From a virus: DNA of 64,000 bases. This document shows positions 3,139 through 36,166 of the stretch, piece by piece. Under the pieces are notes generated by a model. That model made no database searches and was not told the origin of the DNA. It saw only the letters and a program-made list of their open reading frames with translations. Where the stretch lies: IMG/VR virus record IMGVR_UViG_3300045988_121434, positions 32,336 to 96,335 of that record; one strand, 5' to 3'. The translations under genes were made by a program, and so were the position numbers. The stretch's first letter is position 1. The number at the start of each line of letters is the position of its first letter.

Positions 3139-3600
3139 ATGATTAAAGCAGAAGACCTTAGAATAGGCGACATTGTGCAGACAAACAAAGACTGCATGTT
3201 TCCGAAAGACACATTGTGCATCGTTACCGAAATCCATCCCGACCGACAGTTTAATGACAAAAAGGGAGTCGTCAGTCTGAAGGCTGTCAACGACGAAGAC
3301 GACGGTCCCTGGGGGACATGGTGCTGCAACATCGATGGCGTGCCCATCACGCCCGAAATACTTCGCAATAATGACTTTAAGGAAGAAGTCGAAGGCAAAT
3401 ACTTCACAAGGCCAATCAAAGTCAGAGCAGGCAGTTCCCTTGCCAGATATTTGGCTGTAGAACGAAAAAAATACGCTTGGGCAATATTCATAAAGTATTA
3501 CAACGTGACAGGCTATGCACTCTTATGTCATGTAAAGTACGTTCACGAACTACGGCTCGCCCTTAAAATAGTAAAATTTAATCCGGAAATGAAAGTATAA
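3139..3600 (+). CDS. Hypothetical phage protein
   Basis: The ATG at 3139 (MIKAEDLRIGDIV...) lies inside tracked ORF 3097-3600. It overlaps the stop of a 28-codon YopX-like leader ORF (3060-3146) by ATGATTAA. Confidence 0.5.
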   Translation: MIKAEDLRIGDIVQTNKDCMFPKDTLCIVTEIHPDRQFNDKKGVVSLKAVNDEDDGPWGTWCCNIDGVPITPEILRNNDFKEEVEGKYFTRPIKVRAGSSLARYLAVERKKYAWAIFIKYYNVTGYALLCHVKYVHELRLALKIVKFNPEMKV

Positions 3601-3628
3601 TGTGGATGAATAAGTAAGTAACAAAACA

Positions 3629-3763
3629 ATGACTGACATTAAGATTTCGGTGCATCCGTTTGGCCATAAGCTCGAATGGCGAGGATGGGGGGGTAACTTC
3701 TCGCCTGCTCTACGAGCCACCGACTACAAATGCCCTCACTGTATAATGATTGAATATGACTAA
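3629..3763 (+). CDS. TRD-like mini-ORF M1 (C5-MTase target-recognition-domain-like)
   Basis: 44 codons: MTDIKISVHPFGHKLEWRGWGGNFSPALRATDYKCPHCIMIEYD*. The SPALRATDYK...IMIE segment resembles the PTLrA-DYK...lIE portion of C5-MTase TRDs. The G7 tract at 3687-3693 is in frame. The stop overlaps the next ATG (ATGACTAA). Confidence 0.55.
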   Translation: MTDIKISVHPFGHKLEWRGWGGNFSPALRATDYKCPHCIMIEYD

Positions 3764-3890
3764 GCAACACCCATTCGATGATTTTCATCAGCGCATTCAT
3801 TGGGACGGCAACTCCATCGGAACCGTTACCCAGCAATGGGGCAATCCTGCGCCGAGGCACGGATGGCGAATAATGACAGAATATGATTAA
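3756..3890 (+). CDS. TRD-like mini-ORF M2
   Basis: 44 codons: MTKQHPFDDFHQRIHWDGNSIGTVTQQWGNPAPRHGWRIMTEYD*. It has the same length and the same ...EYD* end as M1. The TRD resemblance is weaker (IGTVTQQWG). It has an 8-nt ATGATTAA overlap with M3. Confidence 0.4.
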   Translation: MTKQHPFDDFHQRIHWDGNSIGTVTQQWGNPAPRHGWRIMTEYD

Positions 3891-4212
3891 CCCTCACACG
3901 CCCCGCTACAAGCGCGGCACCATCACCAAGGACGGCAAGCTATACGGACGCTATCCCGACGGTTCGCTCTACCGCATCTACTCCACCTCTGACCGACCCT
4001 TCCTTCAGATTGTTGACCGCAAGGGCGAGACGTTCCTTCGCATACGCCAAGCCACCGAGCAGGGCTATACCGACTGCCCTTGCCCTGGTGCTGCCGACCT
4101 CAGCTATTCCTCCTCGGCTCTAAGGCGCAGCAGGACGGTTGGGGGGGGGGGTAAGCTGGTGAACGCTCTGACCGCAGCAAGCGGAGGGGCGTGCGTGTTT
4201 GTTGAATTATGA
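3883..4212 (+). CDS. TRD-like ORF M3
   Basis: 109 codons. ...IRQATEQGYTDCPCPGAADLSYSSSALRRSRTVGGGGKLVNALTAASGGACVFVEL* fits the remembered TRD pattern (GY...dl..p.S..RRGRVg....a.TLt). The G10 tract at 4141-4150 is in frame. Confidence 0.6.
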   Translation: MINPHTPRYKRGTITKDGKLYGRYPDGSLYRIYSTSDRPFLQIVDRKGETFLRIRQATEQGYTDCPCPGAADLSYSSSALRRSRTVGGGGKLVNALTAASGGACVFVEL

Positions 4213-4219
4213 CTTGAAT

Positions 4220-4396
4220 ATGCTTAGAGCAAAGGCAATATCAATAATGGTGAAAAAGGTGGAGCAGACCATGGTGTTTCAGAACATGCAAGCCAAAGGT
4301 CTGATAACGCCTCGCTCGCTTGATGGCGAATGTTTTACTCTTACGTCTGCAATGGGATTAGGGGGGGCAAACGCCTGTAATAGTAAAGGTATATGA
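4220..4396 (+). CDS. TRD-like mini-ORF M4 (non-canonical end as sequenced)
   Basis: ATG at 4220 (the track starts at TTG 4199). The sequence ...GECFTLTSAMGLGG is followed by the G7 tract at 4361-4367. As sequenced it ends NSKGI*. With G6 it would read GLGGQTPVIVKVYD* and end at TAA 4398-4400 with the canonical ATGACTAA overlap. Confidence 0.5.
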   Translation: MLRAKAISIMVKKVEQTMVFQNMQAKGLITPRSLDGECFTLTSAMGLGGANACNSKGI

Positions 4397-4524
4397 CTAA
4401 ATACGACCTCTACCAATATCCTCGTGGCTACAACGACGGAGGTAGATTAGGCACTGACGTTTGCCCGACCTTGACAATCAATTCGTGGCAGCAAAATGTA
4501 TTTCTGATTGAAGAATATGAATAA
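4393..4524 (+). CDS. TRD-like mini-ORF M5, in frame with the MTase core
   Basis: 43 codons: MTKYDLYQYPRGYNDGGRLGTDVCPTLTINSWQQNVFLIEEYE*. It has a CPTLT TRD core. It is in the same reading frame as ORF 4537-5865, separated only by TAA 4522-4524 plus 4 codons (SKDN). Confidence 0.6.
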   Translation: MTKYDLYQYPRGYNDGGRLGTDVCPTLTINSWQQNVFLIEEYE

Positions 4525-4536
4525 AGCAAAGACAAT

Positions 4537-5865
4537 ATGATCACAAAACTCAATTTCACCGACCGCACCATCAAGAGCTATGCTATCCGTAAGCTCACGC
4601 CAAAGGAGTGTTTCCGCTTGATGGGCGTTCGCGACAACGTAATCGGCACGATGCAGAGCAGCAATGCCCAAGCAGCCGAACGTTTGCCCGACTGGAAGGG
4701 CAAGGGCAAACCCGAAGACATGGCTATATCTGCCTCACAGCAGTACAAGCAAGCCGGAAACTCAATCGTGGTGGACGTGTTGGCCCACATCTACGAGCAA
4801 CTTTTCTATCCCGCACCGCCCAAGCCCCGCAAGCAGGAACAGCTCACGCTCTTCGCCGACCTTGATGACTCGCTGCCCGCCATGCCACCAACAGCCGGAG
4901 AACGTGGTAAGGAAAATCTTTTCCTCACCACGTTCTCCGGCTACGACTCGCAGCTCATGGCAGCCGACGTGCTATGCGAGTGGCATCCCGACTTCCGATG
5001 GACATGCGTAGGATGGAGCGACATCGACAAATACGCCTGTCAGATGCACAACCTCGTCTTCCCTCAGTTTGCCGACTGCGCCCTTGGCGACATCACCAAG
5101 ATTGACTGGCATGAGGTGAAACGCTCGCTCCATGGGCGCGAGGTTGACATCTTCACCTATTCCTCGCCTTGCCAGGACATCAGCCAAGCCGGAAAGCAAA
5201 TGGGACTGAAAGAGGGCAGCGACACACGAAGCGCCCTGCTTTGGCGAGTGGCAGATGCCGTGGAGGTGTTGCGCCCGAAATATCTCTTGCAGGAGAACGT
5301 GGCGGCACTGGTAAGCTCGAAGTTCATGCCCGACTTTCAGAAGTGGCTCGACAAACTCTCCTCGCTCGGCTATGTGAGCCGTTGGGCGCGACTCAACGCA
5401 AAGAACTATGGTGTGCCACAAAACCGCGATCGTGTGTTCTGCATTTCCATGCGCAAAGACGTAGCCTTCGACTATCAGTTTCCCGAACCCTTCGAGCTGC
5501 GCACCCGACTGGAGGACGTGTTGGAAAATGAGGTAGCCGACCGTTATTTCCTAAAAGACGATGCCGTGAGCAAGTTTCTCAAGGCTAACGACTCCGACAA
5601 CGCCCTATTCATGCAGTTCGACCTGCCACCGACACACGAGGCAGCGATGTTCCTCAAGACCGTGCTTCAGATATTCATGGAGCGTCACGACGGATGGGAC
5701 GAAGGCATTGAGTGGAACGAGAAGGAGCTGAGCTATCGTCGCCCAACCATCGCCCGTCTCTACGAAAAGTTCAAGGAGAACCCAAAGAAACTGGACGTGG
5801 AATATTGGCGCGGCTTTTACAAGATGTTTAAGGAGAATATGGAGAGGAATAAGGATGCGAACTGA
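4537..5865 (+). CDS. DNA (cytosine-5)-methyltransferase catalytic core, circularly permuted (IX-X-I-IV-VI-VIII), no internal TRD
   Basis: Motifs seen, in order: IRKLTPKECFRLMG (IX), QAGNSIVVDVL (X), Pro-rich linker, TTFSGYDSQ (I), SSPCQDIS (IV, PCQ), LLQENV (VI), GVPQNRDRVF (VIII). These are followed by a helical tail of about 135 aa. Confidence 0.85.
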   Translation: MITKLNFTDRTIKSYAIRKLTPKECFRLMGVRDNVIGTMQSSNAQAAERLPDWKGKGKPEDMAISASQQYKQAGNSIVVDVLAHIYEQLFYPAPPKPRKQEQLTLFADLDDSLPAMPPTAGERGKENLFLTTFSGYDSQLMAADVLCEWHPDFRWTCVGWSDIDKYACQMHNLVFPQFADCALGDITKIDWHEVKRSLHGREVDIFTYSSPCQDISQAGKQMGLKEGSDTRSALLWRVADAVEVLRPKYLLQENVAALVSSKFMPDFQKWLDKLSSLGYVSRWARLNAKNYGVPQNRDRVFCISMRKDVAFDYQFPEPFELRTRLEDVLENEVADRYFLKDDAVSKFLKANDSDNALFMQFDLPPTHEAAMFLKTVLQIFMERHDGWDEGIEWNEKELSYRRPTIARLYEKFKENPKKLDVEYWRGFYKMFKENMERNKDAN

Positions 5866-6046
5866 CAACCCACCCGACCGTGTAATCCATATCATAGCTG
5901 ATATGATTATGGGTGGCAGGTTGCTCACCTGCCCTGCCTCGATGTTCAGTGCAGAACGCTGCAACGGAGCCTTTCACGGCATAGCAATAACCATCATGTC
6001 GCGCACCGATTGCAGCGACGTGTTCTTTGTAGCAGTAGAATTATGA
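5855..6046 (+). CDS. TRD-like mini-ORF M6
   Basis: 63 codons. It overlaps the end of the core ORF by 11 nt. ...NGAFHGIAITIMSRTDCSDVFFVAVEL* has the same VEL* end as M3 and M13. The TRD resemblance is moderate. Confidence 0.45.
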   Translation: MRTDNPPDRVIHIIADMIMGGRLLTCPASMFSAERCNGAFHGIAITIMSRTDCSDVFFVAVEL

Positions 6047-6191
6047 AGAAAACCAACCCGTGTCACGCAATACAAAATGGGGGGGTACGATTGCGCCTGC
6101 AATTACTTCCCACTATTTTAAGGCTGGTGTGCGAGACTTCCTCTTTGCCCTTGCCATACCACATTGTTGTTTGATAGTAGAATATGAATAA
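6043..6191 (+). CDS. TRD-like mini-ORF M7, frameshifted at a G7 tract as sequenced
   Basis: The ATG at 6043 opens MKKTNPCHAIQNGG. After the G7 tract (6079-6085) the TRD-like sequence WGGTIAPAITSHYFKAGVRDFLFALAIPHCCLIVEYE* continues in another frame and ends at TAA 6189-6191. One extra G (G8) would fuse the two parts. As sequenced, the ATG frame stops at 6174. Confidence 0.5.
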
Positions 6192-6336
6192 CAACCCTCG
6201 CCCTATCATCCTCGGCTCTTACAGTCCCTCGCAGAACGGCATCATCGTGTCACCACACGGCATAGCCTTGTGCATAGCCGGGGGAGGTAAGGGTCACGAT
6301 GTGGATAAACCGAAAATACTGATAGAGTATGACTGA
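6184..6336 (+). CDS. TRD-like mini-ORF M8
   Basis: 50 codons: MNNNPRPIILGSYSPSQNGIIVSPHGIALCIAGGGKGHDVDKPKILIEYD*. It fits the pattern G-i-a-p-T/C-l-.-a-GGG...pKi-iE. It has 8-nt overlaps at both ends. Confidence 0.6.
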   Translation: MNNNPRPIILGSYSPSQNGIIVSPHGIALCIAGGGKGHDVDKPKILIEYD

Positions 6337-6508
6337 CAAGTATTACATTGGCTGGGTACGCAGCGGCAAGGACGGCAAGGGCCTCGTAAAGAGCAGACCG
6401 CGCAAGCAGATAGCCAATGCCGTGACGACAATGGTCGGAAGAGGTATTGCCGACCCTCGCGACGGACTCGGCAACACCACACCGCATATAGTATATGAAT
6501 TTGAGTAA
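6329..6508 (+). CDS. TRD-like mini-ORF M9
   Basis: 59 codons: ...RPRKQIANAVTTMVGRGIADPRDGLGNTTPHIVYEFE*. ANAVTT resembles the sNtLTT core. Confidence 0.5.
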   Translation: MTDKYYIGWVRSGKDGKGLVKSRPRKQIANAVTTMVGRGIADPRDGLGNTTPHIVYEFE

Positions 6509-6525
6509 CCCATAAAACAAAAAAA

Positions 6526-6906
6526 ATGGAAAAAGACAAAAACGTAGAGATAGGCCGTGCTCTCGCCAATTTTGATATGGCCTGTCGCAATTTGGTCAAC
6601 CTTGTCAACGACCAACTCTTCGAGACCTCCCGCTCACCCTACTGGGTAGCCGACGAGGTAGGAGGCATCTGCGACTTCGGCGATACCGACTTCCTCACGC
6701 CCGAAGAAATGGTGCTCATTCTCGAACACGGCGTCAGCTACGACGACTATGTAGAGTGGCGCGAAGCCAACATCAAGTATGGCGACACCAAAGGCTACAT
6801 CAAACTCAAGTCATGGCTCCGCGGATGCCGACACGACCGTGTGGAGGGTGCAAATACCAAGACAAACTGCATCGCCCCAGTCCGTGGCCGTGGAGTAATT
6901 CGATAA
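6526..6906 (+). CDS. Hypothetical protein embedded in the TRD array
   Basis: 126-codon ORF with normal composition and no MTase or TRD motif recognised. Confidence 0.5.
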   Translation: MEKDKNVEIGRALANFDMACRNLVNLVNDQLFETSRSPYWVADEVGGICDFGDTDFLTPEEMVLILEHGVSYDDYVEWREANIKYGDTKGYIKLKSWLRGCRHDRVEGANTKTNCIAPVRGRGVIR

Positions 6907-6931
6907 CAACAGTAACAAAAGACAACCTCCT

Positions 6932-7105
6932 ATGCTACACTTTCGCATAGCAGCCTTTCGAGGCCGTGACCCCGACAATCCGTCCGACCGCAAGCATCCC
7001 TCCTGCGGTCGTTTCCGTCAGCGCATGGAGATAAATGCGTTGGGTACGACCAACACGCTTACGTCAGTAGGCAAGGATAATATGGCATATATAGAGTATG
7101 AATAA
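6932..7105 (+). CDS. TRD-like mini-ORF M10
   Basis: 57 codons: MLHFRIAAFRGRDPDNPSDRKHPSCGRFRQRMEINALGTTNTLTSVGKDNMAYIEYE*. It closely follows a remembered Dcm-family TRD string (vAmRGRnPeNPsDR...eQrlE.n.dG.sNTLTSVqKDN). Confidence 0.65.
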   Translation: MLHFRIAAFRGRDPDNPSDRKHPSCGRFRQRMEINALGTTNTLTSVGKDNMAYIEYE

Positions 7106-7247
7106 TCAAACCCCATTCGTGCAACGCCTCTCTCGCCTCTGCCCACGTCGGGGGTACTCCACCGCCCTGTCCGCACGCTACGACGGATGGGCAGGGCTCT
7201 ACGACGAGCACGGACAGCACACCATTGTATTGATAGAGTATGAATAA
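7098..7247 (+). CDS. TRD-like mini-ORF M11
   Basis: 49 codons: MNNQTPFVQRLSRLCPRRGYSTALSARYDGWAGLYDEHGQHTIVLIEYE*. STALSARYDG resembles sPTLtARy.kg. Confidence 0.55.
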   Translation: MNNQTPFVQRLSRLCPRRGYSTALSARYDGWAGLYDEHGQHTIVLIEYE

Positions 7248-7380
7248 GTACATACAAAATTGTCCGTCAGGTATCTGTTGCGTTCTGACCTCTCATTACG
7301 CAAGAGAAGGATGGGCGAACATAGCAAGCAATACAACATCACAATGCAAAGCACCCACAATATTGATAGAGTATGAATAA
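7240..7380 (+). CDS. TRD-like mini-ORF M12
   Basis: 46 codons: MNKYIQNCPSGICCVLTSHYAREGWANIASNTTSQCKAPTILIEYE*. It has the 18-nt junction TTGATAGAGTATGAATAA, identical to that of M11. Confidence 0.55.
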   Translation: MNKYIQNCPSGICCVLTSHYAREGWANIASNTTSQCKAPTILIEYE

Positions 7381-7867
7381 AAATGTAACAAACCCCATAA
7401 AAACAACAGAGACAATGAAACCAGAAGAAAACAACCGTATGGAGGCACTTGCCTACATCATAGCCGACCTAAAGGCAGAGAACATAGAGCTGGTGCAGCG
7501 TGTGCATCAGCTTGTGGAGGATTACAACGACGTAGCACGTCAGTTGCGTGGAATGGAGAAGCGTAAGGACGAAGACCAGTCAAGGCAGACGCTCGGCGAA
7601 ATGATGCAGATGCGCGACCATTGCGACAAACTGGAGGTTGAAAACAACAATTTGAAGACGTGCTTGATAGCAGTCAGCTCGTTTCTGCGAGACAAAAATC
7701 TGTATATGGCTAATGGCACATTATGTTCTTATGGGTCTGGCAATCCAGAAGTATGTCCTGAGTACTGCAAAAAATGTAACTCCTACCTAAGTACTTTAAA
7801 GGATGTTGGTGTGGTTTGCAGCAGAAGACTTGCAGAAGCTTCCGTAATTTTTGCGAAGAGTAAATGA
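7373..7867 (+). CDS. Hypothetical coiled-coil protein with Cys-rich C-terminus, embedded in the TRD array
   Basis: 164-codon ORF joined to M12 by the same 8-nt overlap. It is heptad-rich in the middle and has CPEYCKKC near the C-terminus. Confidence 0.5.
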   Translation: MNKNVTNPIKTTETMKPEENNRMEALAYIIADLKAENIELVQRVHQLVEDYNDVARQLRGMEKRKDEDQSRQTLGEMMQMRDHCDKLEVENNNLKTCLIAVSSFLRDKNLYMANGTLCSYGSGNPEVCPEYCKKCNSYLSTLKDVGVVCSRRLAEASVIFAKSK

Positions 7868-8025
7868 CACCAACAAAAACCCTCGTAGTCGGCATGATGC
7901 AGACGCCACCCTATGACCGCATGTTTGAGCAGAGCCGCCGCGTGTACTCCGCTCAGGGAATATCGCCCACGCTGCATACACAAGGGGGGGGTGATAGAGA
8001 GATTAAGGTATTGGTGGAGCTGTAA
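7864..8025 (+). CDS. TRD-like mini-ORF M13
   Basis: 53 codons: MTPTKTLVVGMMQTPPYDRMFEQSRRVYSAQGISPTLHTQGGGDREIKVLVEL*. This is the textbook-looking TRD core (R-vY...G-iSPTL-t-GGG...k-l). The G8 tract at 7984-7991 is in frame. Confidence 0.65.
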   Translation: MTPTKTLVVGMMQTPPYDRMFEQSRRVYSAQGISPTLHTQGGGDREIKVLVEL

Positions 8026-8141
8026 GAATGTCCGCTCCATATCGCCGACAACACCTATCTTTGCACATATCACTGAACGAATGAGACTAACATCGTTTTC
8101 ATTTGTTTCGTCTGGTGACAAACAAAAACAACATTTCATCT

Positions 8142-8495
8142 ATGATACAACATCAGCATTGGGAAGACTCCACTCACATACTCATTACCGACGAGCAGCA
8201 TCATGGCAGCATACAGGTGTTCATCCCCAAGCGCACCGAAGACAAGCCCTTGGATGGCGAGGCTGACGCTCTCGTCTATTCGCTGTGGGTGGGCGAACGG
8301 CACCGTGGCCGTGGGGTGGCAAAACTCCTGATGGAGACAGCCGAAAGGGAACTGAAGCGCTGCGGCATAGCGACCGTCGCTATATCGTGGGATGGACGCG
8401 ACTCTCCCCAATGGGTGTTGCAATGGTATGAAAGGTTGGGCTACGAAGGAAAAGCGTTCGACTACCGCTGCTGCACGCTTCTTAAACGGTTGTAG
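8142..8495 (+). CDS. GNAT-family N-acetyltransferase (short paralogue)
   Basis: Motif A is WVGERHRGRGVAKLLMETAERELK. It aligns by eye with the C-terminal half of ORF 1116-1775. The ATG at 8142 lies inside tracked ORF 8103-8495. Confidence 0.7.
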   Translation: MIQHQHWEDSTHILITDEQHHGSIQVFIPKRTEDKPLDGEADALVYSLWVGERHRGRGVAKLLMETAERELKRCGIATVAISWDGRDSPQWVLQWYERLGYEGKAFDYRCCTLLKRL

Positions 8496-8663: not shown

Positions 8664-9839
8664 ATGAGCGACTTAAAGATTTTTGCAAAGACCATTGAAC
8701 CTGAAGCCCAGGAGCAAGTAAGGCAGATGGCAGAGAGCGAGGCTTACCGCGACTGTAAGATTCGCATTATGCCCGATTGCCATGCCGGAAAGGAATGCAC
8801 CGTAGGCACCGTGATTGAGACCCGCGGCAAAGTGGTGCCCAACACCGTGGGCGTTGACATCGGTTGCGGTATGCTCGTGTGGGATTTAGGCTTTGCCAAC
8901 ATTGATATGGAGATTCTCGACCGTATCATCAACGACAACATTCCAAGCGGATTCAATGTGCATGAGAAGCGTTTGTCGTCAGAGATGGTTTCCCTTATGC
9001 ACAATGAAATATGGTGTTTTTTGCCTCCGTGGAAGCAATATTTTGACCTCGACTATGTACTGCGTTCGCTCGGCACCCTTGGCGGTGGCAGCCACTTTAT
9101 TGAGGTTGACGTGGACGACGAAGGACGCAAGTATCTTGTAGTACATTCGGGTAGCCGCAATTTAGGCGTAAAGATATGCCGACATTTTCAGCAGTTGGCA
9201 TCAAGACAATGCAACAACAGTGAGGAACGTGGACGTATCATTTCCGAACTGAAAGCTCAGGGCAGACAGAGCGAGATAAACGATGCGCTGCGCCGGTTGA
9301 AACCCGTTTCTAAAGACATGGCCTACATTAGCGGTACCACGCTTGGCGATTACTATGATGCCATGCGCTTGTGTCAGCATTATGCCGACTTGAACCGTTT
9401 TCTTATGGCGCAAACCATAATCAAAGGTCTTGAACTAAAGTCTACAGGTCGTGTGTTCACCACCATGCACAACTACATCGACACCTTCGGCATTATCCGC
9501 AAGGGAGCTGTGAGCGCAAAGAAGGGCGAGCCTCTGATTATCCCTCTGAACATGCGCGACGGTTCGCTGCTGTGTACTGGCAAGGGCAACAACGACTGGC
9601 TTCAGTCGGCTCCCCACGGCGCAGGCAGACTAATGTCGCGCTCGGCTGCCAAGAAGCAGCTCAGCATGGACGAATACCGCCAACAGATGCACGACATCTA
9701 CTCTACATCGGTATGCGAGGCCACAATCGACGAAGCTCCAATGGCGTATAAGTCGGCAGAGGAAATAGAAGCGTTGATAGGCGACACCGTGAACATCGTG
9801 AAGCGCATTAAGCCGATATATAACTTTAAGGCGAAGTAA
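8664..9839 (+). CDS. rtcB: RtcB-type RNA 3'-phosphate/5'-OH ligase
   Basis: Characteristic RtcB strings are present: MPDCHAGKE, GVDIGCGM, GGGSHFIEVD, HSGSRNLG, TMHNYI, IPLNMRDG, APHGAGR. Confidence 0.9.
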   Translation: MSDLKIFAKTIEPEAQEQVRQMAESEAYRDCKIRIMPDCHAGKECTVGTVIETRGKVVPNTVGVDIGCGMLVWDLGFANIDMEILDRIINDNIPSGFNVHEKRLSSEMVSLMHNEIWCFLPPWKQYFDLDYVLRSLGTLGGGSHFIEVDVDDEGRKYLVVHSGSRNLGVKICRHFQQLASRQCNNSEERGRIISELKAQGRQSEINDALRRLKPVSKDMAYISGTTLGDYYDAMRLCQHYADLNRFLMAQTIIKGLELKSTGRVFTTMHNYIDTFGIIRKGAVSAKKGEPLIIPLNMRDGSLLCTGKGNNDWLQSAPHGAGRLMSRSAAKKQLSMDEYRQQMHDIYSTSVCEATIDEAPMAYKSAEEIEALIGDTVNIVKRIKPIYNFKAK

Positions 9840-15048: not shown

Positions 15049-15468
15049 TTACATTTTGAATTGTTTTTTCAAGAAAGTGTTGCTTTTAATAAGCTCTATC
15101 ATTTCCTCCTCGGAGTGTATTCCTTCCCAAAATACTTCAGTATGCGACCCACGCCTTTCATCATCTACGGAGAACGGCACGGCATAGTTGGTATATACAA
15201 CACCGTGATGTTTTATCAAGTGACGACCTGGATTCTTGTAGATGTTATTGATCCACGTCTCGTTGTCACATTCAGTCCATATTTTACATTCTTTGTGGGT
15301 AAGATTTTTGTCGATACCCATAGGATAGTGACCTGCCTTGCCGTTACTTTTGTTCCGAAATAAATGATCTTTGCCATATCGTGATTGTTTTATAATTCGC
15401 CAAAGTCCAGTTTCATCTGTTGGAATTTCTCGGCATACCATTGTTTGTATGATTTGCCCGAAATCCAC
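15049..15468 (-). CDS. Hypothetical protein (start uncertain)
   Basis: 139-codon ORF with protein-like composition. The first ATG would overlap the upstream gene by 79 nt, so the true start may be internal. Confidence 0.45.
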   Translation of the reverse strand: MDFGQIIQTMVCREIPTDETGLWRIIKQSRYGKDHLFRNKSNGKAGHYPMGIDKNLTHKECKIWTECDNETWINNIYKNPGRHLIKHHGVVYTNYAVPFSVDDERRGSHTEVFWEGIHSEEEMIELIKSNTFLKKQFKM

Positions 15469-16547
15469 CAGTCGTAGATATTTTCCGCTATTTCGTTTTC
15501 TTGCTCCTCCGTCAAGCGGTCAGAAGAGGAGCTGGACGAAAACCCTGGGGCTGCGATATTCCGTACACCTCTGTTTTGTCTCCAATGTTCCGGGTCTGGA
15601 TGTTTGATGTAGCCGCCTGTGTCCTGAGCAATCCTCTGACGTTTCTGAGAGGCATCCAGTCCTTGCGGATGTTCCACCAAATATATTCTCTTTTGAATAC
15701 CCCCCCCGTTTCGGATAGCCTTAATAGCCTTTATCCAGTTGCGCTTGATATGCGGATAGCGTTCATTCTCGATGCGTTTCTGCTTTGCAGACGACATAGG
15801 GCAGCCGATGCAGCCGATGCGATGCCATCCCTCGTCGTAGAGCGAGCAATGCGGAACCTTCACCACATCGTTAAGAAACTCCCATACGTCCTTTTCCGTC
15901 CAATAAATGATGGGTGAAATAAGCAGACTCTCTTTGCCGTGGATGCAGCTTAATGTCTGTTCTTCATCAGCATTAGTGATATTCACGCCTTGCTCCTTGG
16001 ATTTACGGCGAGCACGTTTAGCCTTCAGCTCCTGACGATATTCGTCCAGACCGTCAAGATTGCCACTAAACTTTCGGTTATTTATTTCTACCTCATTTCG
16101 TTTGGCTCGGCGTGCGCTCTCTGCCTTGCGGATGCCGATTAGCGTTACCTTGCCAGCACCTGCCGTTTCCTTATATTCAGCGCAACACCAGCGCACACGC
16201 ATAGTGGGCAGAATCTGCTTTTCTACGGCAATCTGAAAGATAGATTTGCCAGGCTTTAGCAGTTCCACCTCGGGATAGTTCTTCTTAACGAAACGTATCA
16301 CTTCGGGTGGATCAACGCTCGTAAGATTCATGTGACCGCGAAATTTCACCCCCGCCAACTGAGTCATGTGGAAAAGAGCTTGAGAATCCTTTCCACCACT
16401 AAACGCCAAGTAATATCCATTCTCGGCATCATAGTTGAGGGCTATCTTCTCTGCTTTTTGCAGCAGCTCCACCGAGTGAAGCATCTTTTTTCGCAGTCCT
16501 TCCGAAGCTCGCTCCAATGCTTCGGCAAGCGTAATGTCTATATTCAT
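15390..16547 (-). CDS. PAPS-reductase-like PP-loop ATPase family protein
   Basis: It has the PP-loop YLAFSGGKDSQAL, followed by Cys-containing motifs (RWCC, CIGCP) and a basic central insert. A G8 tract on the coding strand (C8 at 15700-15707) is in frame. Confidence 0.7.
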   Translation of the reverse strand: MNIDITLAEALERASEGLRKKMLHSVELLQKAEKIALNYDAENGYYLAFSGGKDSQALFHMTQLAGVKFRGHMNLTSVDPPEVIRFVKKNYPEVELLKPGKSIFQIAVEKQILPTMRVRWCCAEYKETAGAGKVTLIGIRKAESARRAKRNEVEINNRKFSGNLDGLDEYRQELKAKRARRKSKEQGVNITNADEEQTLSCIHGKESLLISPIIYWTEKDVWEFLNDVVKVPHCSLYDEGWHRIGCIGCPMSSAKQKRIENERYPHIKRNWIKAIKAIRNGGGIQKRIYLVEHPQGLDASQKRQRIAQDTGGYIKHPDPEHWRQNRGVRNIAAPGFSSSSSSDRLTEEQENEIAENIYDWWISGKSYKQWYAEKFQQMKLDFGEL

Positions 16548-35212: not shown

Positions 35213-36166
35213 ATGGAACTACGACATTTGCGCTCCTTTGTTTTTGTGGCGGAAACAAAGTCGTTCAGTATCGCCGCCACCCGATGTTGCGTAACCCAAT
35301 CGGCAGTAAGCCAGCATATCCGGGCATTGGAAGATGAATTAGGTTGCAAACTACTTATTCGTACCTCGCACGAAATCAACCTTACAGAGAGTGGCGAAGC
35401 TCTCTTGCCAAGGGCTAAGGACATCATCAAGCAGACAGAGGACTGCAAGGAACAAATTAATGCGCTTAACAACTGCATGATTGGTGAACTGCGTATAGGT
35501 ATTGGCTCTTTCATCGCTCCTTACGTCAGAATGGCTGCACTCATTTTTATGGAGCGATACCCTAACGTGCGTATCAATGCCGATTTCACAAAGGCGCATA
35601 TCCTTAACAAAACGCTCCGTGCGCACATGATAGACCTCGCCTTTACCATGAACACGGCATATAGCCACGAGGGTATAGAGTCGCAGCCGTGCATACCATT
35701 CTCCGTGTATGCCATTATGCGTGATACCCATCCGCTTTCCTGTTTACCGAAAGTGTCGTATGAGGATTTGTTGAAACACCCGGTCATAATGCCCGATGTT
35801 GGTGAGCGTGTGTTTGAAACCTGTCAGCAATACATACAGCGCGACCTGTATAAATTGAATATAAAATGTGTGATAAGCGACCCCGATGAAGCACTTGCAT
35901 CCGTGGAAGAAACGAAATGTGTTACGTTCATGACACAGCTCTATTTGCGCCACCACCCTACACTTGTGGCTCGCCCTATCGTGGGACTTGAACGCCAACT
36001 GATGAGTAATGCCCACTGGATGAAGGATGTTCCTATAAAGCGGTCAGCGCAAATTTTCTTGGATATAATAAAGAATGAAGTAGTGCCTTATATTTCTGTT
36101 ATCGAAGAGACGAAAGGCACTTTTACCCCCCCCCCGATAGATATTAGCAATTCTGCCTCACGCTAA
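35213..36166 (+). CDS. LysR-family transcriptional regulator
   Basis: It has the N-terminal wHTH MELRHLRSFVFVAETKSFSIAATRCCVTQSAVSQHIRALEDELGCKLL and a typical LTTR effector-domain length. A C10 tract at 36126-36135 lies near the 3' end. Confidence 0.9.
   Translation: MELRHLRSFVFVAETKSFSIAATRCCVTQSAVSQHIRALEDELGCKLLIRTSHEINLTESGEALLPRAKDIIKQTEDCKEQINALNNCMIGELRIGIGSFIAPYVRMAALIFMERYPNVRINADFTKAHILNKTLRAHMIDLAFTMNTAYSHEGIESQPCIPFSVYAIMRDTHPLSCLPKVSYEDLLKHPVIMPDVGERVFETCQQYIQRDLYKLNIKCVISDPDEALASVEETKCVTFMTQLYLRHHPTLVARPIVGLERQLMSNAHWMKDVPIKRSAQIFLDIIKNEVVPYISVIEETKGTFTPPPIDISNSASR

What the first reader, a model, noticed from the sequence alone, without database searches (positions are those of the whole stretch)
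3687..7991. G7-G10 homopolymer tracts concentrated in the TRD modules, two of them putting modules out of frame
By eye, the only G/C runs of 7 or more in the window are G7 3687-3693 (M1), G10 4141-4150 (M3), G7 4361-4367 (M4), G7 6079-6085 (M7), G8 7984-7991 (M13), C8 15700-15707 (PAPS-reductase-like gene) and C10 36126-36135 (LysR 3' end). Five of these seven lie in the 4.4-kb TRD array, and each encodes the GG(G) stretch next to a TL-like core. In M7 the ATG frame and the TRD frame are joined only if the tract is G8; the result would be MKKTNPCHAIQNGGGTIAPAITSHYFKAG...LIVEYE*. In M4 the canonical ...QTPVIVKVYD* end, with its 8-nt ATGACTAA overlap, is restored only with G6. This is the signature of slipped-strand phase variation switching individual specificity modules ON and OFF. 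Phase-variable MTases (phasevarions) are known in bacteria. A per-TRD switch in a phage would be new.
Basis: partly seen in the sequence, partly recalled or inferred. Interest (0 to 1): 0.75.

Follow-up and report, generated by a model that had tools for sequence, protein, structure and literature searches.

The report
Poly-G switches in phage methylase modules
An uncultured human-gut phage encodes its DNA-methylase specificity domains as a row of tiny genes, and many carry unstable runs of G whose length differs between otherwise identical genomes, turning single domains on or off; this looks like bet-hedging against host restriction systems.

Summary
All five G runs of 7 or more lie in 3687-7991, where a first-order model expects 0.14. 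M4 (G7) and M7 (G7) are out of frame exactly as described.

Comparative data support hypermutable switches. Public assemblies with 0 mismatches to the window over 10-16 kb differ only at the M3 tract (G8, G9, G10, G11). The predicted G6 ON form of M4 exists in a 97.6% identical strain.

In 80 related phage contigs, G runs of 7 or more are 22-fold denser in the module arrays than outside. Across 16 module families, tracts of 5 or fewer Gs are 458 ON / 13 OFF. Tracts of 6 or more are 52 ON / 99 OFF. OFF alleles keep an intact, codon-constrained downstream frame.

M13 is homologous to the M.HhaI recognition loop, and to that region in full-length cytosine-5 (C5) methyltransferases. The 442-aa core is circularly permuted and has no target recognition domain (TRD) of its own.

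Sequencing error, recoding and simple decay are poor fits. Within-population variation, methylation effects and adaptive value remain untested. I rate it a new variant of known contingency loci.

The parts
3629..3763 (+). TRD module M1 (44 aa, ends IMIEYD*). G7 tract at 3687-3693 encodes W-G-G and is in frame (ON).
   Evidence: The orthologous family F1 carries G3-G11 at this site, with G7 and G10 ON and G6, G8 and G11 mostly OFF. The exact allele also occurs with G9 (OFF) in 2 public contigs.
3756..3890 (+). TRD module M2 (44 aa). No long tract.
3883..4212 (+). TRD module M3 (109 aa, ends VFVEL*). G11 tract at 4141-4151 encodes GGGG just before NALTA and is in frame (ON). This is the most variable tract.
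   Evidence: It is G10 in L001 and G8 in L083, with no other difference over 15.8 and 10.2 kb. Exact products for G8 (10 contigs), G9 (2), G10 (2) and G11 (1) are all in public data.
4220..4400 (+). TRD module M4. G7 tract at 4361-4367 puts it out of frame (OFF), so it stops at the TGA at 4394-4396. G6 or G9 would give ..GLGG(G)QTPVIVKVYD*, ending at 4400.
   Evidence: The same G7 is found in L001, L083 and five small contigs. The exact G6 ON protein P0195 is encoded on L093. A G9 ON form occurs in L044.
4393..4524 (+). TRD module M5 (43 aa, CPTLTI motif). It has no tract here; relatives L023 and L024 carry G8 (OFF) at the equivalent site.
4537..5865 (+). C5-cytosine methyltransferase core (442 aa). 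It is circularly permuted (motifs IX-X, then up to VIII) and has no TRD of its own.
   Evidence: Pfam DNA_methylase, E 2e-51. Residues 157-336 align to M.HhaI 35-209 and residues 18-85 to M.HhaI 272-314. Nothing aligns to the HhaI TRD at 210-271.
5855..6046 (+). TRD module M6 (63 aa, ends VAVEL*). The tract site is interrupted here (ATGGGTGGC). Relatives carry G6-G9, mostly OFF.
6043..6191 (+). TRD module M7. G7 tract at 6079-6085 puts it out of frame (OFF), so it stops at 6174. G8 or G5 gives MKKTNPCHAIQNGG(G)TIAPAITSHYFK...LIVEYE*.
   Evidence: The same G7 is found in L001 and L083. Orthologues are G8 ON in L031 and L060, G9 OFF in L028, L048 and L049, and G6 OFF in L094.
6184..6336 (+). TRD module M8 (50 aa). 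Interrupted tract GGGGGAGG at 6280-6287, locked ON. Relatives carry G6-G10.
6329..6508 (+). TRD module M9 (59 aa). No tract.
6932..7105 (+). TRD module M10 (57 aa, TTNTLTS motif). The tract site is interrupted here (TGCGTTGGG). The 98% identical strains L082, L084 and L085 carry G9 at this site.
7098..7247 (+). TRD module M11 (49 aa). G5 at 7150-7154, ON. Relatives carry G6-G9, mostly OFF.
7240..7380 (+). TRD module M12 (46 aa). No tract.
7864..8025 (+). TRD module M13 (53 aa, ends VLVEL*). G8 tract at 7984-7991 encodes the GGG loop after PTLHTQ and is in frame (ON).
   Evidence: It aligns to M.HhaI 237-257 (11 of 21 identical, E 9e-6). [quoted passage not shown] The exact allele also occurs with G9 (OFF). 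Many frameshifted homologues diverge exactly at the GGG.
15700..15707 (-). G8 on the coding (minus) strand of a PAPS-reductase-like gene (15390-16547). It encodes N-G-G-G and is in frame.
   Evidence: Only the in-frame product of the exact allele was found in public data.
36126..36135 (+). C10 near the 3' end of a LysR-type regulator gene (35213-36166), encoding PPP. It is also hypervariable, and length changes alter only the last 2-11 residues.
   Evidence: Exact-allele products for C8 (13 contigs), C9 (16), C10 (12) and C11 (1) all exist.

Best explanation
The poly-G tracts are hypermutable simple-sequence repeats (contingency loci). They sit in the glycine-rich recognition loops of small, separately translated target-recognition-domain (TRD) genes. 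These genes flank a circularly permuted, TRD-less C5-cytosine methyltransferase core.

Slipped-strand mispairing during phage DNA replication adds or removes Gs. Each module therefore flips between a full-length TRD peptide (ON) and a truncated one (OFF), independently of its neighbours. A change of 3 Gs keeps the frame but alters the loop length.

A phage population then carries many combinations of active specificities. I infer that each ON peptide complements the core in trans: its terminal beta-strand (..IEYE/..VEL) lies where the TRD joins motif IX. I also infer that the mixture is a bet-hedge. A methylation specificity protects against a host Type II system, but it can expose the phage to methylation-dependent (Type IV) restriction, or compete with more useful TRDs for the single core.

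Shown: the tracts, their enrichment, their length polymorphism between identical genomes, the frame toggling, the intactness of OFF alleles, the TRD homology of M13, and the permuted TRD-less core.

Inferred: the slippage mechanism, trans-complementation, the effect on methylation, and the adaptive value.
For: Enrichment: 5 observed against 0.14 expected in the window. Across 80 relatives, density is 0.51/kb inside arrays against 0.023/kb outside.

Hypermutability:
- The window against L001 (15,765 bp) and against L083 (10,212 bp) has 0 mismatches; the only difference is G11/G10/G8 at 4141.
- L042 and L043 have 0 mismatches in 13,314 bp but four indels: three module G tracts and one C tract.
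- In seven near-identical pairs, 10 of 20 G runs of 7 or more vary in length, against 0 of 23 A/T runs.
- Exact M3, M1, M13 and M4 alleles exist in several tract states in public data.

Switching: across 16 module families and 622 instances, tracts of 5 or fewer Gs are 458 ON / 13 OFF and tracts of 6 or more are 52 ON / 99 OFF, p 9e-61. ON and OFF follow tract length modulo 3.

Not decay: OFF alleles keep an open downstream frame (stops in 2 of 112). Their differences sit 57% at third codon positions, with synonymous:nonsynonymous 446:406.

Not codon usage: GGG is 11% of Gly codons genome-wide, yet it starts 7 of 11 Gly-Gly pairs in modules against 3 of 80 elsewhere.

Tracts occur at two different loop positions, before or after the TL motif, in at least 16 distinct families. 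This points to repeated independent origin.

TRD identity.

Precedent: the T2 agt DNA-modification gene acts as a contingency locus that trades TgvAB against McrBC restriction (bioRxiv 10.1101/2025.10.21.683753).
Against: - No read-level data were available, so variation within one population is not shown.
- Several same-strain contigs may come from one cohort (record names point to PRJNA217052 and SAMN0233xxxx samples), so they may not be fully independent.
- An ON share of about one third for long tracts is what neutral drift of tract length would also give.
- Many lineages carry interrupted, stable tracts.
- M1, M4, M7 and M13 tracts (G7-G8) did not differ among the strictly identical assemblies; only the G11 tract did.
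- A long C tract in an unrelated LysR-like gene is just as variable. Hypermutability is therefore a property of any long G/C run in this phage, not proof of selection.
- No methylation data exist, and trans-complementation of the core by 43-109 aa peptides is untested.
Confidence: 0.75

Rival explanations
1. Non-adaptive mutational hot spots. The glycine loops of the TRDs drifted to GGG codons, and runs then expand and contract by slippage. OFF states are mildly deleterious or neutral polymorphisms in dispensable modules. There is no selected switching function.
For: The ON share of long tracts (52 of 151) is close to the one third expected for random length. About three quarters of module instances have short or interrupted tracts and are stably ON. 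The LysR C tract shows that any long G/C run in this phage varies.
Against: Density is 22-fold higher in the arrays, and the GGG-GGN codon choice is strongly atypical compared with the rest of the genome. Tracts recur in at least 16 non-orthologous module families at two loop positions. OFF alleles show no secondary decay. If OFF were simply harmful, synonymous interruption (GGA, GGT or GGC) should remove the tracts quickly, yet 72 of 80 genomes keep at least one.
Confidence: 0.15
2. Homopolymer sequencing or assembly error. The true tracts are all in frame, and the apparent OFF states and length differences are artefacts.
For: Only G/C runs vary between near-identical assemblies, while A/T runs do not. 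This could reflect platform bias. L048 starts with A15...G22 at a module tract, which is an obvious assembly artefact. Several same-strain contigs have only about 2x coverage.
Against: - M4 G7 and M7 G7 are reproduced in separately assembled contigs from different samples and assemblers.
- The G8 OFF state of M1-type modules recurs in 15 divergent genomes.
- G8 at M3 is reproduced in 10 contigs.
- A G7 inside the essential core (locus position 6588) is G7 in all 11 loci that have it.
- Errors around an in-frame truth would leave most tracts ON, not two thirds OFF.
Confidence: 0.05
3. Programmed recoding. The G runs are sites of transcriptional slippage or ribosomal frameshifting. Out-of-frame modules are still expressed, and the DNA tract length matters little.
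For: Long homopolymers can cause RNA polymerase slippage (general knowledge). That would make OFF alleles leaky, and I could not test it.
Against: Recoding sites keep a fixed length and an obligatory out-of-frame arrangement. Here length varies from G6 to G11 within one orthologue. A third of long tracts, and 97% of short or interrupted ones, are simply in frame. G-only heptamers are poor -1 slippery sites (general knowledge).
Confidence: 0.05

Closest known systems
Phase-variable restriction-modification methyltransferases of bacteria: phasevarions, the polyG-controlled Type IIG cj0031 of Campylobacter jejuni (PMC4889913), and the polyG tract in Type I NgoAV hsdS (PMC9577141)
   Same: A homopolymeric G tract inside a methyltransferase or specificity gene. 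Length changes shift the frame and alter which DNA motifs are methylated. The result is stochastic, heritable and reversible.
   Different: Here the host is a lytic-type gut phage, not a bacterium. The switch sits in each of many small TRD genes of a C5 methylase, not in one mod or hsdS gene. No regulon role is implied. The likely purpose is escape from restriction.
Hypermutable polyG tracts in Campylobacter phages (Sorensen et al. 2021, Cell Rep 35:109214, as cited in PMC12823448)
   Same: Phage-encoded polyG tracts that create ON/OFF diversity in the progeny.
   Different: Those tracts are in receptor-binding protein genes and change host adsorption. Here they are in DNA-methylase specificity modules.
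Contingency loci in T-even phages, notably the A-run in T2 agt (Gomez, Barrick and Waters, bioRxiv 10.1101/2025.10.21.683753)
   Same: A homopolymer in a phage DNA-modification gene reversibly switches the modification off. This lets the phage trade one restriction system (TgvAB) against another (McrA/BC).
   Different: That case is a single gene, an A run and a glucosylation function. Here there is an array of up to 13 modules with G runs. The tracts are strongly concentrated there and far longer (up to G11), which would give combinatorial states.
Multispecific C5-methyltransferases of Bacillus phages (SPR, phi3T, rho11s; from established knowledge) and the multi-TRD proteins found
   Same: One catalytic core serves several TRDs of different specificity. 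The M13 profile matches 2-6 repeated stretches in such long methylases.
   Different: In those enzymes the TRDs are fused in one polypeptide between motifs VIII and IX. Here each TRD is its own ORF with an overlapping stop/start, the core is permuted, and single TRDs carry their own switch.
Circularly permuted C5-MTases (M.BssHII type) and naturally split ones (M.AquI) (PMC5944983)
   Same: The motif order is IX-X before I-VIII. Split enzymes work by fragment complementation, with the cut beside the TRD.
   Different: Known permuted enzymes keep the TRD covalently attached at the N-terminus. Known split enzymes have two fixed subunits, not a library of alternative TRD peptides.

Membership tests
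Simple-sequence-repeat contingency locus (slipped-strand phase variation) | A homopolymer or short repeat lies inside the coding sequence or promoter | tested here: met
   G7-G11 tracts lie inside modules M1, M3, M4, M7 and M13.
Simple-sequence-repeat contingency locus (slipped-strand phase variation) | A change in repeat number toggles between a full-length and a truncated product | tested here: met
   Modelled products for each tract length. ON and OFF follow length modulo 3 in 16 families.
Simple-sequence-repeat contingency locus (slipped-strand phase variation) | Repeat length varies between otherwise identical or near-identical genomes, far above the background substitution rate | tested here: met
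   There are 0 mismatches over 10-16 kb, yet the tract is G8, G9, G10 or G11. Ten of 20 G runs vary, against 0 of 23 A/T runs.
Simple-sequence-repeat contingency locus (slipped-strand phase variation) | Reversibility of the switch | tested here: inconclusive
   The evidence is only indirect. OFF alleles are intact and codon-constrained, and ON and OFF states are interspersed among close relatives.
Simple-sequence-repeat contingency locus (slipped-strand phase variation) | Length heterogeneity within a single population, and a measured switching rate | not testable with these tools
   No reads or cultures were available.
Phasevarion | The phase-variable methyltransferase changes expression of a set of genes | not tested
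   No expression or methylome data. I do not file it here.
C5-methyltransferase target recognition domain | [quoted passage not shown] | tested here: met
   M13 aligns to M.HhaI 237-257. The M13 profile gives 798 hits at E of 1e-3 or better. All ten long hits checked are DNA_methylase proteins. [quoted passage not shown] The other modules are supported only by motif and position; Pfam and PDB sequence searches found nothing for them.
Multispecific phage C5-MTase (SPR/phi3T type) | Several TRDs lie in tandem within one polypeptide between motifs VIII and IX | tested here: not met
   Every module ends in a stop codon and the next one starts in another frame. The M5-core spacer carries indels in relatives.
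Circularly permuted C5-MTase (M.BssHII type) | Motifs IX-X precede I-VIII in one chain | tested here: met
Circularly permuted C5-MTase (M.BssHII type) | The TRD is covalently part of the same chain | tested here: not met
   No part of the core aligns to the HhaI TRD at 210-271. The TRD-like sequences are separate ORFs.
Programmed recoding site (transcriptional slippage or ribosomal frameshift) | A conserved slippery sequence of fixed length with an obligatory out-of-frame downstream ORF | tested here: not met
   Tract length varies within orthologues, and many alleles are in frame.

The most novel reading that the evidence does not exclude
This widespread family of human-gut phages runs a combinatorial, phase-variable methylome. 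One permuted C5-methylase core is programmed in trans by a library of about 8-13 interchangeable TRD peptides, a C5 counterpart of Type I specificity subunits. Each peptide has its own polyG switch. Some lineages add a polyC master switch in core motif IX. A single burst would therefore release progeny with many different protection patterns, tuned by selection to the restriction and anti-methylation defences of the local host population.
Probability: 0.45. Interest if true: 0.85.

Novelty: new variant of a known kind. Interest (0 to 1): 0.72.

Why it matters
If the switches work as inferred, they show how an uncultured but common gut phage lineage copes with hosts that carry many different restriction systems, including ones that attack methylated DNA. 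The phage would diversify its own epigenetic coat stochastically, module by module.

This extends phase variation of methyltransferases from bacteria to phages. It extends phage contingency loci from receptor-binding and glucosylation genes to sequence-specific methylation. It also exposes a modular design, a core plus small trans-acting TRD peptides, that could be used to build methylases with chosen specificities.

There is a practical warning as well. These arrays are systematically mis-annotated: modules are missed or called as frameshifted hypothetical proteins. They also break assemblies.

Tried and rejected
- Megablast of 3500-8200 against GenBank phages: no match. TerL and core tblastn found only distant relatives (identity 45% or less), so there is no cultured reference.
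- Metagenome scan with the strain-specific M3 flank pattern: 0 hits. I did not use the second scan.
- Pfam at E up to 10 and phmmer against PDB, for single modules: nothing meaningful. TRD identity needed the direct HhaI comparison and the exhaustive profile search.
- Exact look-up of M7 products (G7, G8, G9): none in the collection, probably because gene callers skip this small overlapping ORF. The ON form of the exact M7 allele is therefore unconfirmed; only orthologues show it.
- Promoter/terminator consensus scan and Tandem Repeats Finder on the array: uninformative. No other repeat class is present.
- Read-through fusion of M5 to the core (same frame, one stop): rejected, because the spacer carries indels in relatives.
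- +1 frameshifting at the ATGAnTAA junctions: rejected, because P-site re-pairing would be poor and every module has its own ATG (inference).
- Structure prediction of core plus module: not attempted.


Full report
OBSERVATION

A census of the window finds seven G/C runs of 7 or more. All five G runs lie on the + strand within 3687-7991. A first-order Markov model of 3629-8025 expects 0.14 such runs, and none of 2000 simulations reached five.

The region is a chain of 13 small ORFs of 43-109 aa. They end in ..IEYE*..IEYD* or ..VEL*. Most are joined by an 8-nt ATGAnTAA stop/start overlap, and 12 of the window's 21 such motifs lie here. The ORFs flank a 442-aa C5-methyltransferase gene at 4537-5865.

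Each tract encodes a Gly stretch beside a TL-like motif. Modelling tract lengths confirms both frame claims. M7 reaches ..LIVEYE* only with G8 or G5. M4 reaches ..QTPVIVKVYD* only with G6 or G9. As sequenced, 11 modules are open and M4 and M7 are broken.

WHAT THE MODULES ARE

The core aligns to M.HhaI in two pieces in permuted order. Residues 157-336 match HhaI 35-209, reaching motif VIII and the sequence just after it. Residues 18-85 match HhaI 272-314, which holds motifs IX and X. Nothing matches the HhaI TRD at 210-271.

M13 aligns to HhaI 237-257: QSRRVYSAQGISPTLHTQGGG against QGERIYSTRGIAITLSAYGGG, 11 of 21 identical, E 9e-6. This is the recognition loop with the TL dipeptide and the GGG that follows it.

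A profile of M13 homologues was searched against 1.84 billion representative proteins and found 798 hits. These include long proteins with 2-6 matching stretches. All ten long hits I checked are Pfam DNA_methylase proteins. [quoted passage not shown] Several others carry repeated matches plus only part of the methylase domain.

So M13 is a TRD, and its G8 tract encodes the TRD's glycine loop. The other modules share the TL-like motif, the terminal strand and the position, but gave no significant sequence hits of their own.

The arrangement is therefore a permuted, TRD-less core plus a library of separately encoded TRDs. Permuted (M.BssHII type) and split (M.AquI) C5 methylases are known (PMC5944983). 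A library of trans TRD peptides did not turn up in my literature searches.

ARE THE TRACTS HYPERMUTABLE?

Same-strain assemblies. L001 is an ENA scaffold that matches the window over 15,765 bp with 0 mismatches. Its only difference is G10 instead of G11 at 4141, which breaks M3. L083 is a 96.8-kb contig from another ENA analysis. It matches over 10,212 bp with 0 mismatches, and its only difference is G8. Small contigs from further samples carry G8 or G9, with 0-1 mismatch.

Exact look-ups. The strain-specific M3 product exists for G8 (10 contigs), G9 (2), G10 (2) and G11 (1). M1 exists as G7 and G9, and M13 as G8 and G9. That ON form is encoded on L093, a 97.6% identical strain with G6 at the same site.

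The M4 G7 and M7 G7 states are identical in L001 and L083, and M4 G7 also in five small contigs. They are reproducible states, not read noise.

FAMILY-WIDE PATTERN

Eighty IMG/VR relatives (70-95% core identity) carry G runs of 7 or more almost only in their module arrays, and always as G on the coding strand. Density is 0.51/kb inside against 0.023/kb outside.

Near-identical pairs differ almost only at these tracts. L042 and L043 have 0 mismatches in 13,314 bp and four indels: three module G tracts and one C tract. L002 and L003 have 16 mismatches and four indels, all in module G tracts. Over seven such pairs (89 kb, 21 mismatches), 10 of 20 G runs of 7 or more vary in length, 1 of 4 C runs, and 0 of 23 A/T runs.

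I anchored 16 module families by their flanking peptides, which gave 622 instances. Where the longest G run is 5 or less, 458 are in frame and 13 are not. Where it is 6 or more, 52 are in frame and 99 are not (Fisher p 9e-61). In the M3 family, G8 and G11 are always ON and G6, G7 and G9 always OFF.

Interrupted versions such as GGGAGGGGT, GGGGGTGGT and GGAGGAGGT are stably ON. Seventy-two of 80 genomes have at least one long tract, and the mean is 1.4 OFF modules per genome.

OFF alleles are not decaying. Only 2 of 112 have a stop in the silent downstream frame. Of their differences from the ON consensus, 57% fall at third codon positions, and synonymous:nonsynonymous is 446:406 (ON alleles: 1361:961).

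Codon usage does not explain the runs. GGG is the rarest Gly codon (11%). It starts 3 of 80 Gly-Gly pairs outside the modules, against 7 of 11 inside.

Tracts lie either before or after the TL motif, in different families. These positions match the two glycine-rich recognition loops of HhaI, which suggests repeated independent origin.

MECHANISM AND RIVALS

The best reading is slipped-strand mispairing at polyG contingency loci that toggle single TRD modules.

Sequencing error is unlikely. OFF states are reproduced across separately assembled contigs. One OFF length recurs in 15 divergent genomes. A G7 inside the core is invariant in all 11 loci that have it. Two thirds OFF is not what errors around an in-frame truth would give.

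Programmed recoding is unlikely, because tract length is not conserved and many alleles are simply in frame.

Non-adaptive hot spots remain the serious rival. The ON share of one third fits random length, and a C10 tract in an unrelated LysR-like gene is just as variable, with C8-C11 all common. Against this rival stand the enrichment, the atypical codon choice, the convergence across families and the intact OFF alleles.

The adaptive rationale is inferred. The closest experimental precedent is the T2 agt A-run, which switches glucosylation off to escape TgvAB at the cost of McrBC sensitivity. Competition of many TRD peptides for one core is a second possible reason to silence unneeded modules.

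NOVELTY

These are already known: phase-variable methyltransferases in bacteria, polyG tracts in Campylobacter phage receptor-binding genes (Sorensen 2021, cited), and T-even contingency loci.

Five literature searches found no description of per-TRD polyG switches in a phage methylase, or of this split array. I rate it a new variant of a known kind.

LIMITS

- There are no reads, no methylomes and no host.
- Some same-strain contigs may come from one cohort.
- ON/OFF calls assume the canonical-ending frame is the functional one.
- The anchoring may misplace a few instances.

Noticed in passing
L031, L058, L060, L062, L066, locus positions about 6060-6070 (equivalent to window 4596-4606): A subclade has a polyC tract in core motif IX (RKLTPPECF). 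C8 is in frame (L058, L060). C7, or C7 plus an inserted A, breaks the core (L062, L066, L031). This may be a master switch for the whole methylase. The window has ACGCCAAAGGAG here and no tract.
   Followed up: partly
window 5373-5390, compared with L082, L084 and L085: Three contigs of a 98% identical strain carry a 16-bp tandem duplication (CGTCTCTCGCTGGGCT x2) in the core, just before motif VIII. The methylase gene is therefore called as 336 aa instead of 442. This is a second, also potentially reversible, way of silencing the core.
   Followed up: partly
window 36126-36135 (LysR-type regulator gene 35213-36166): The C10 tract near the stop codon is highly polymorphic in public assemblies of the exact same allele: C8 in 13 contigs, C9 in 16, C10 in 12 and C11 in 1. 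Length changes alter only the last 2-11 residues.
   Followed up: yes
window 15700-15707 (PAPS-reductase-like gene 15390-16547, minus strand): This is G8 on the coding strand, encoding NGGG, and it is in frame. Only the in-frame product of the exact allele was found. A 344-aa member of the same protein cluster has the length expected of a frameshifted variant.
   Followed up: partly
L010 4684: A G9 tract sits directly after the DPPY motif of a separate N6/N4-type methyltransferase gene in one relative. PolyG tracts are therefore not restricted to the C5 modules.
   Followed up: no
proteins P0048, P0053, P0056, P0072, P0083, P0100, P0114, P0120: Public ORFs fuse the core's N-terminus (MITKLNF..RKLTPKECFRLMGVRDNVIG) directly to an M13-type TRD at the shared ..V(I/V)G(T/M)MQ.. 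peptide. This could be recombination between core and module, or chimeric assembly.
   Followed up: no
window 6526-6950: The 126-aa ORF ends ..APVRGRGVIR*. An overlapping frame ends in a TRD-like ..ITTVTKDNLLCYTFA*, which overlaps the M10 start. Relatives have a G7-G8 tract at the equivalent ..REHGD site, where the window has an interrupted GTGGAGGGTG. It is unclear which frame is functional. This may be a fourteenth module.
   Followed up: partly
window 3756-7380, junctions: The ATGAnTAA junction has a stop in two frames (TGA and TAA) and the next start in the third. A frameshifted module therefore either stops at the junction, as M4 does at 4394-4396, or runs into the next module's frame. 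OFF states may or may not have polar effects on the next module.
   Followed up: no
L094 4152-4293 compared with window 3624-3763: The M1 module is identical apart from its tract (G9 against G7), while the rest of that contig is only 88-93% identical. Modules seem to move between phages by recombination.
   Followed up: no
L048 1-90: The contig begins with A15, a C-rich stretch and G22, exactly at a module tract. This is an assembly artefact, and it shows that these tracts break assemblies.
   Followed up: yes
window 8664-9839, 1116-1775, 8103-8495: An RtcB RNA ligase and two GNAT acetyltransferases flank the array. A published gut phage family (Quimbyviridae, PMC8008677) is described with several methyltransferases and a tRNA ligase clustered together. 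I did not test whether this phage belongs to it.
   Followed up: no
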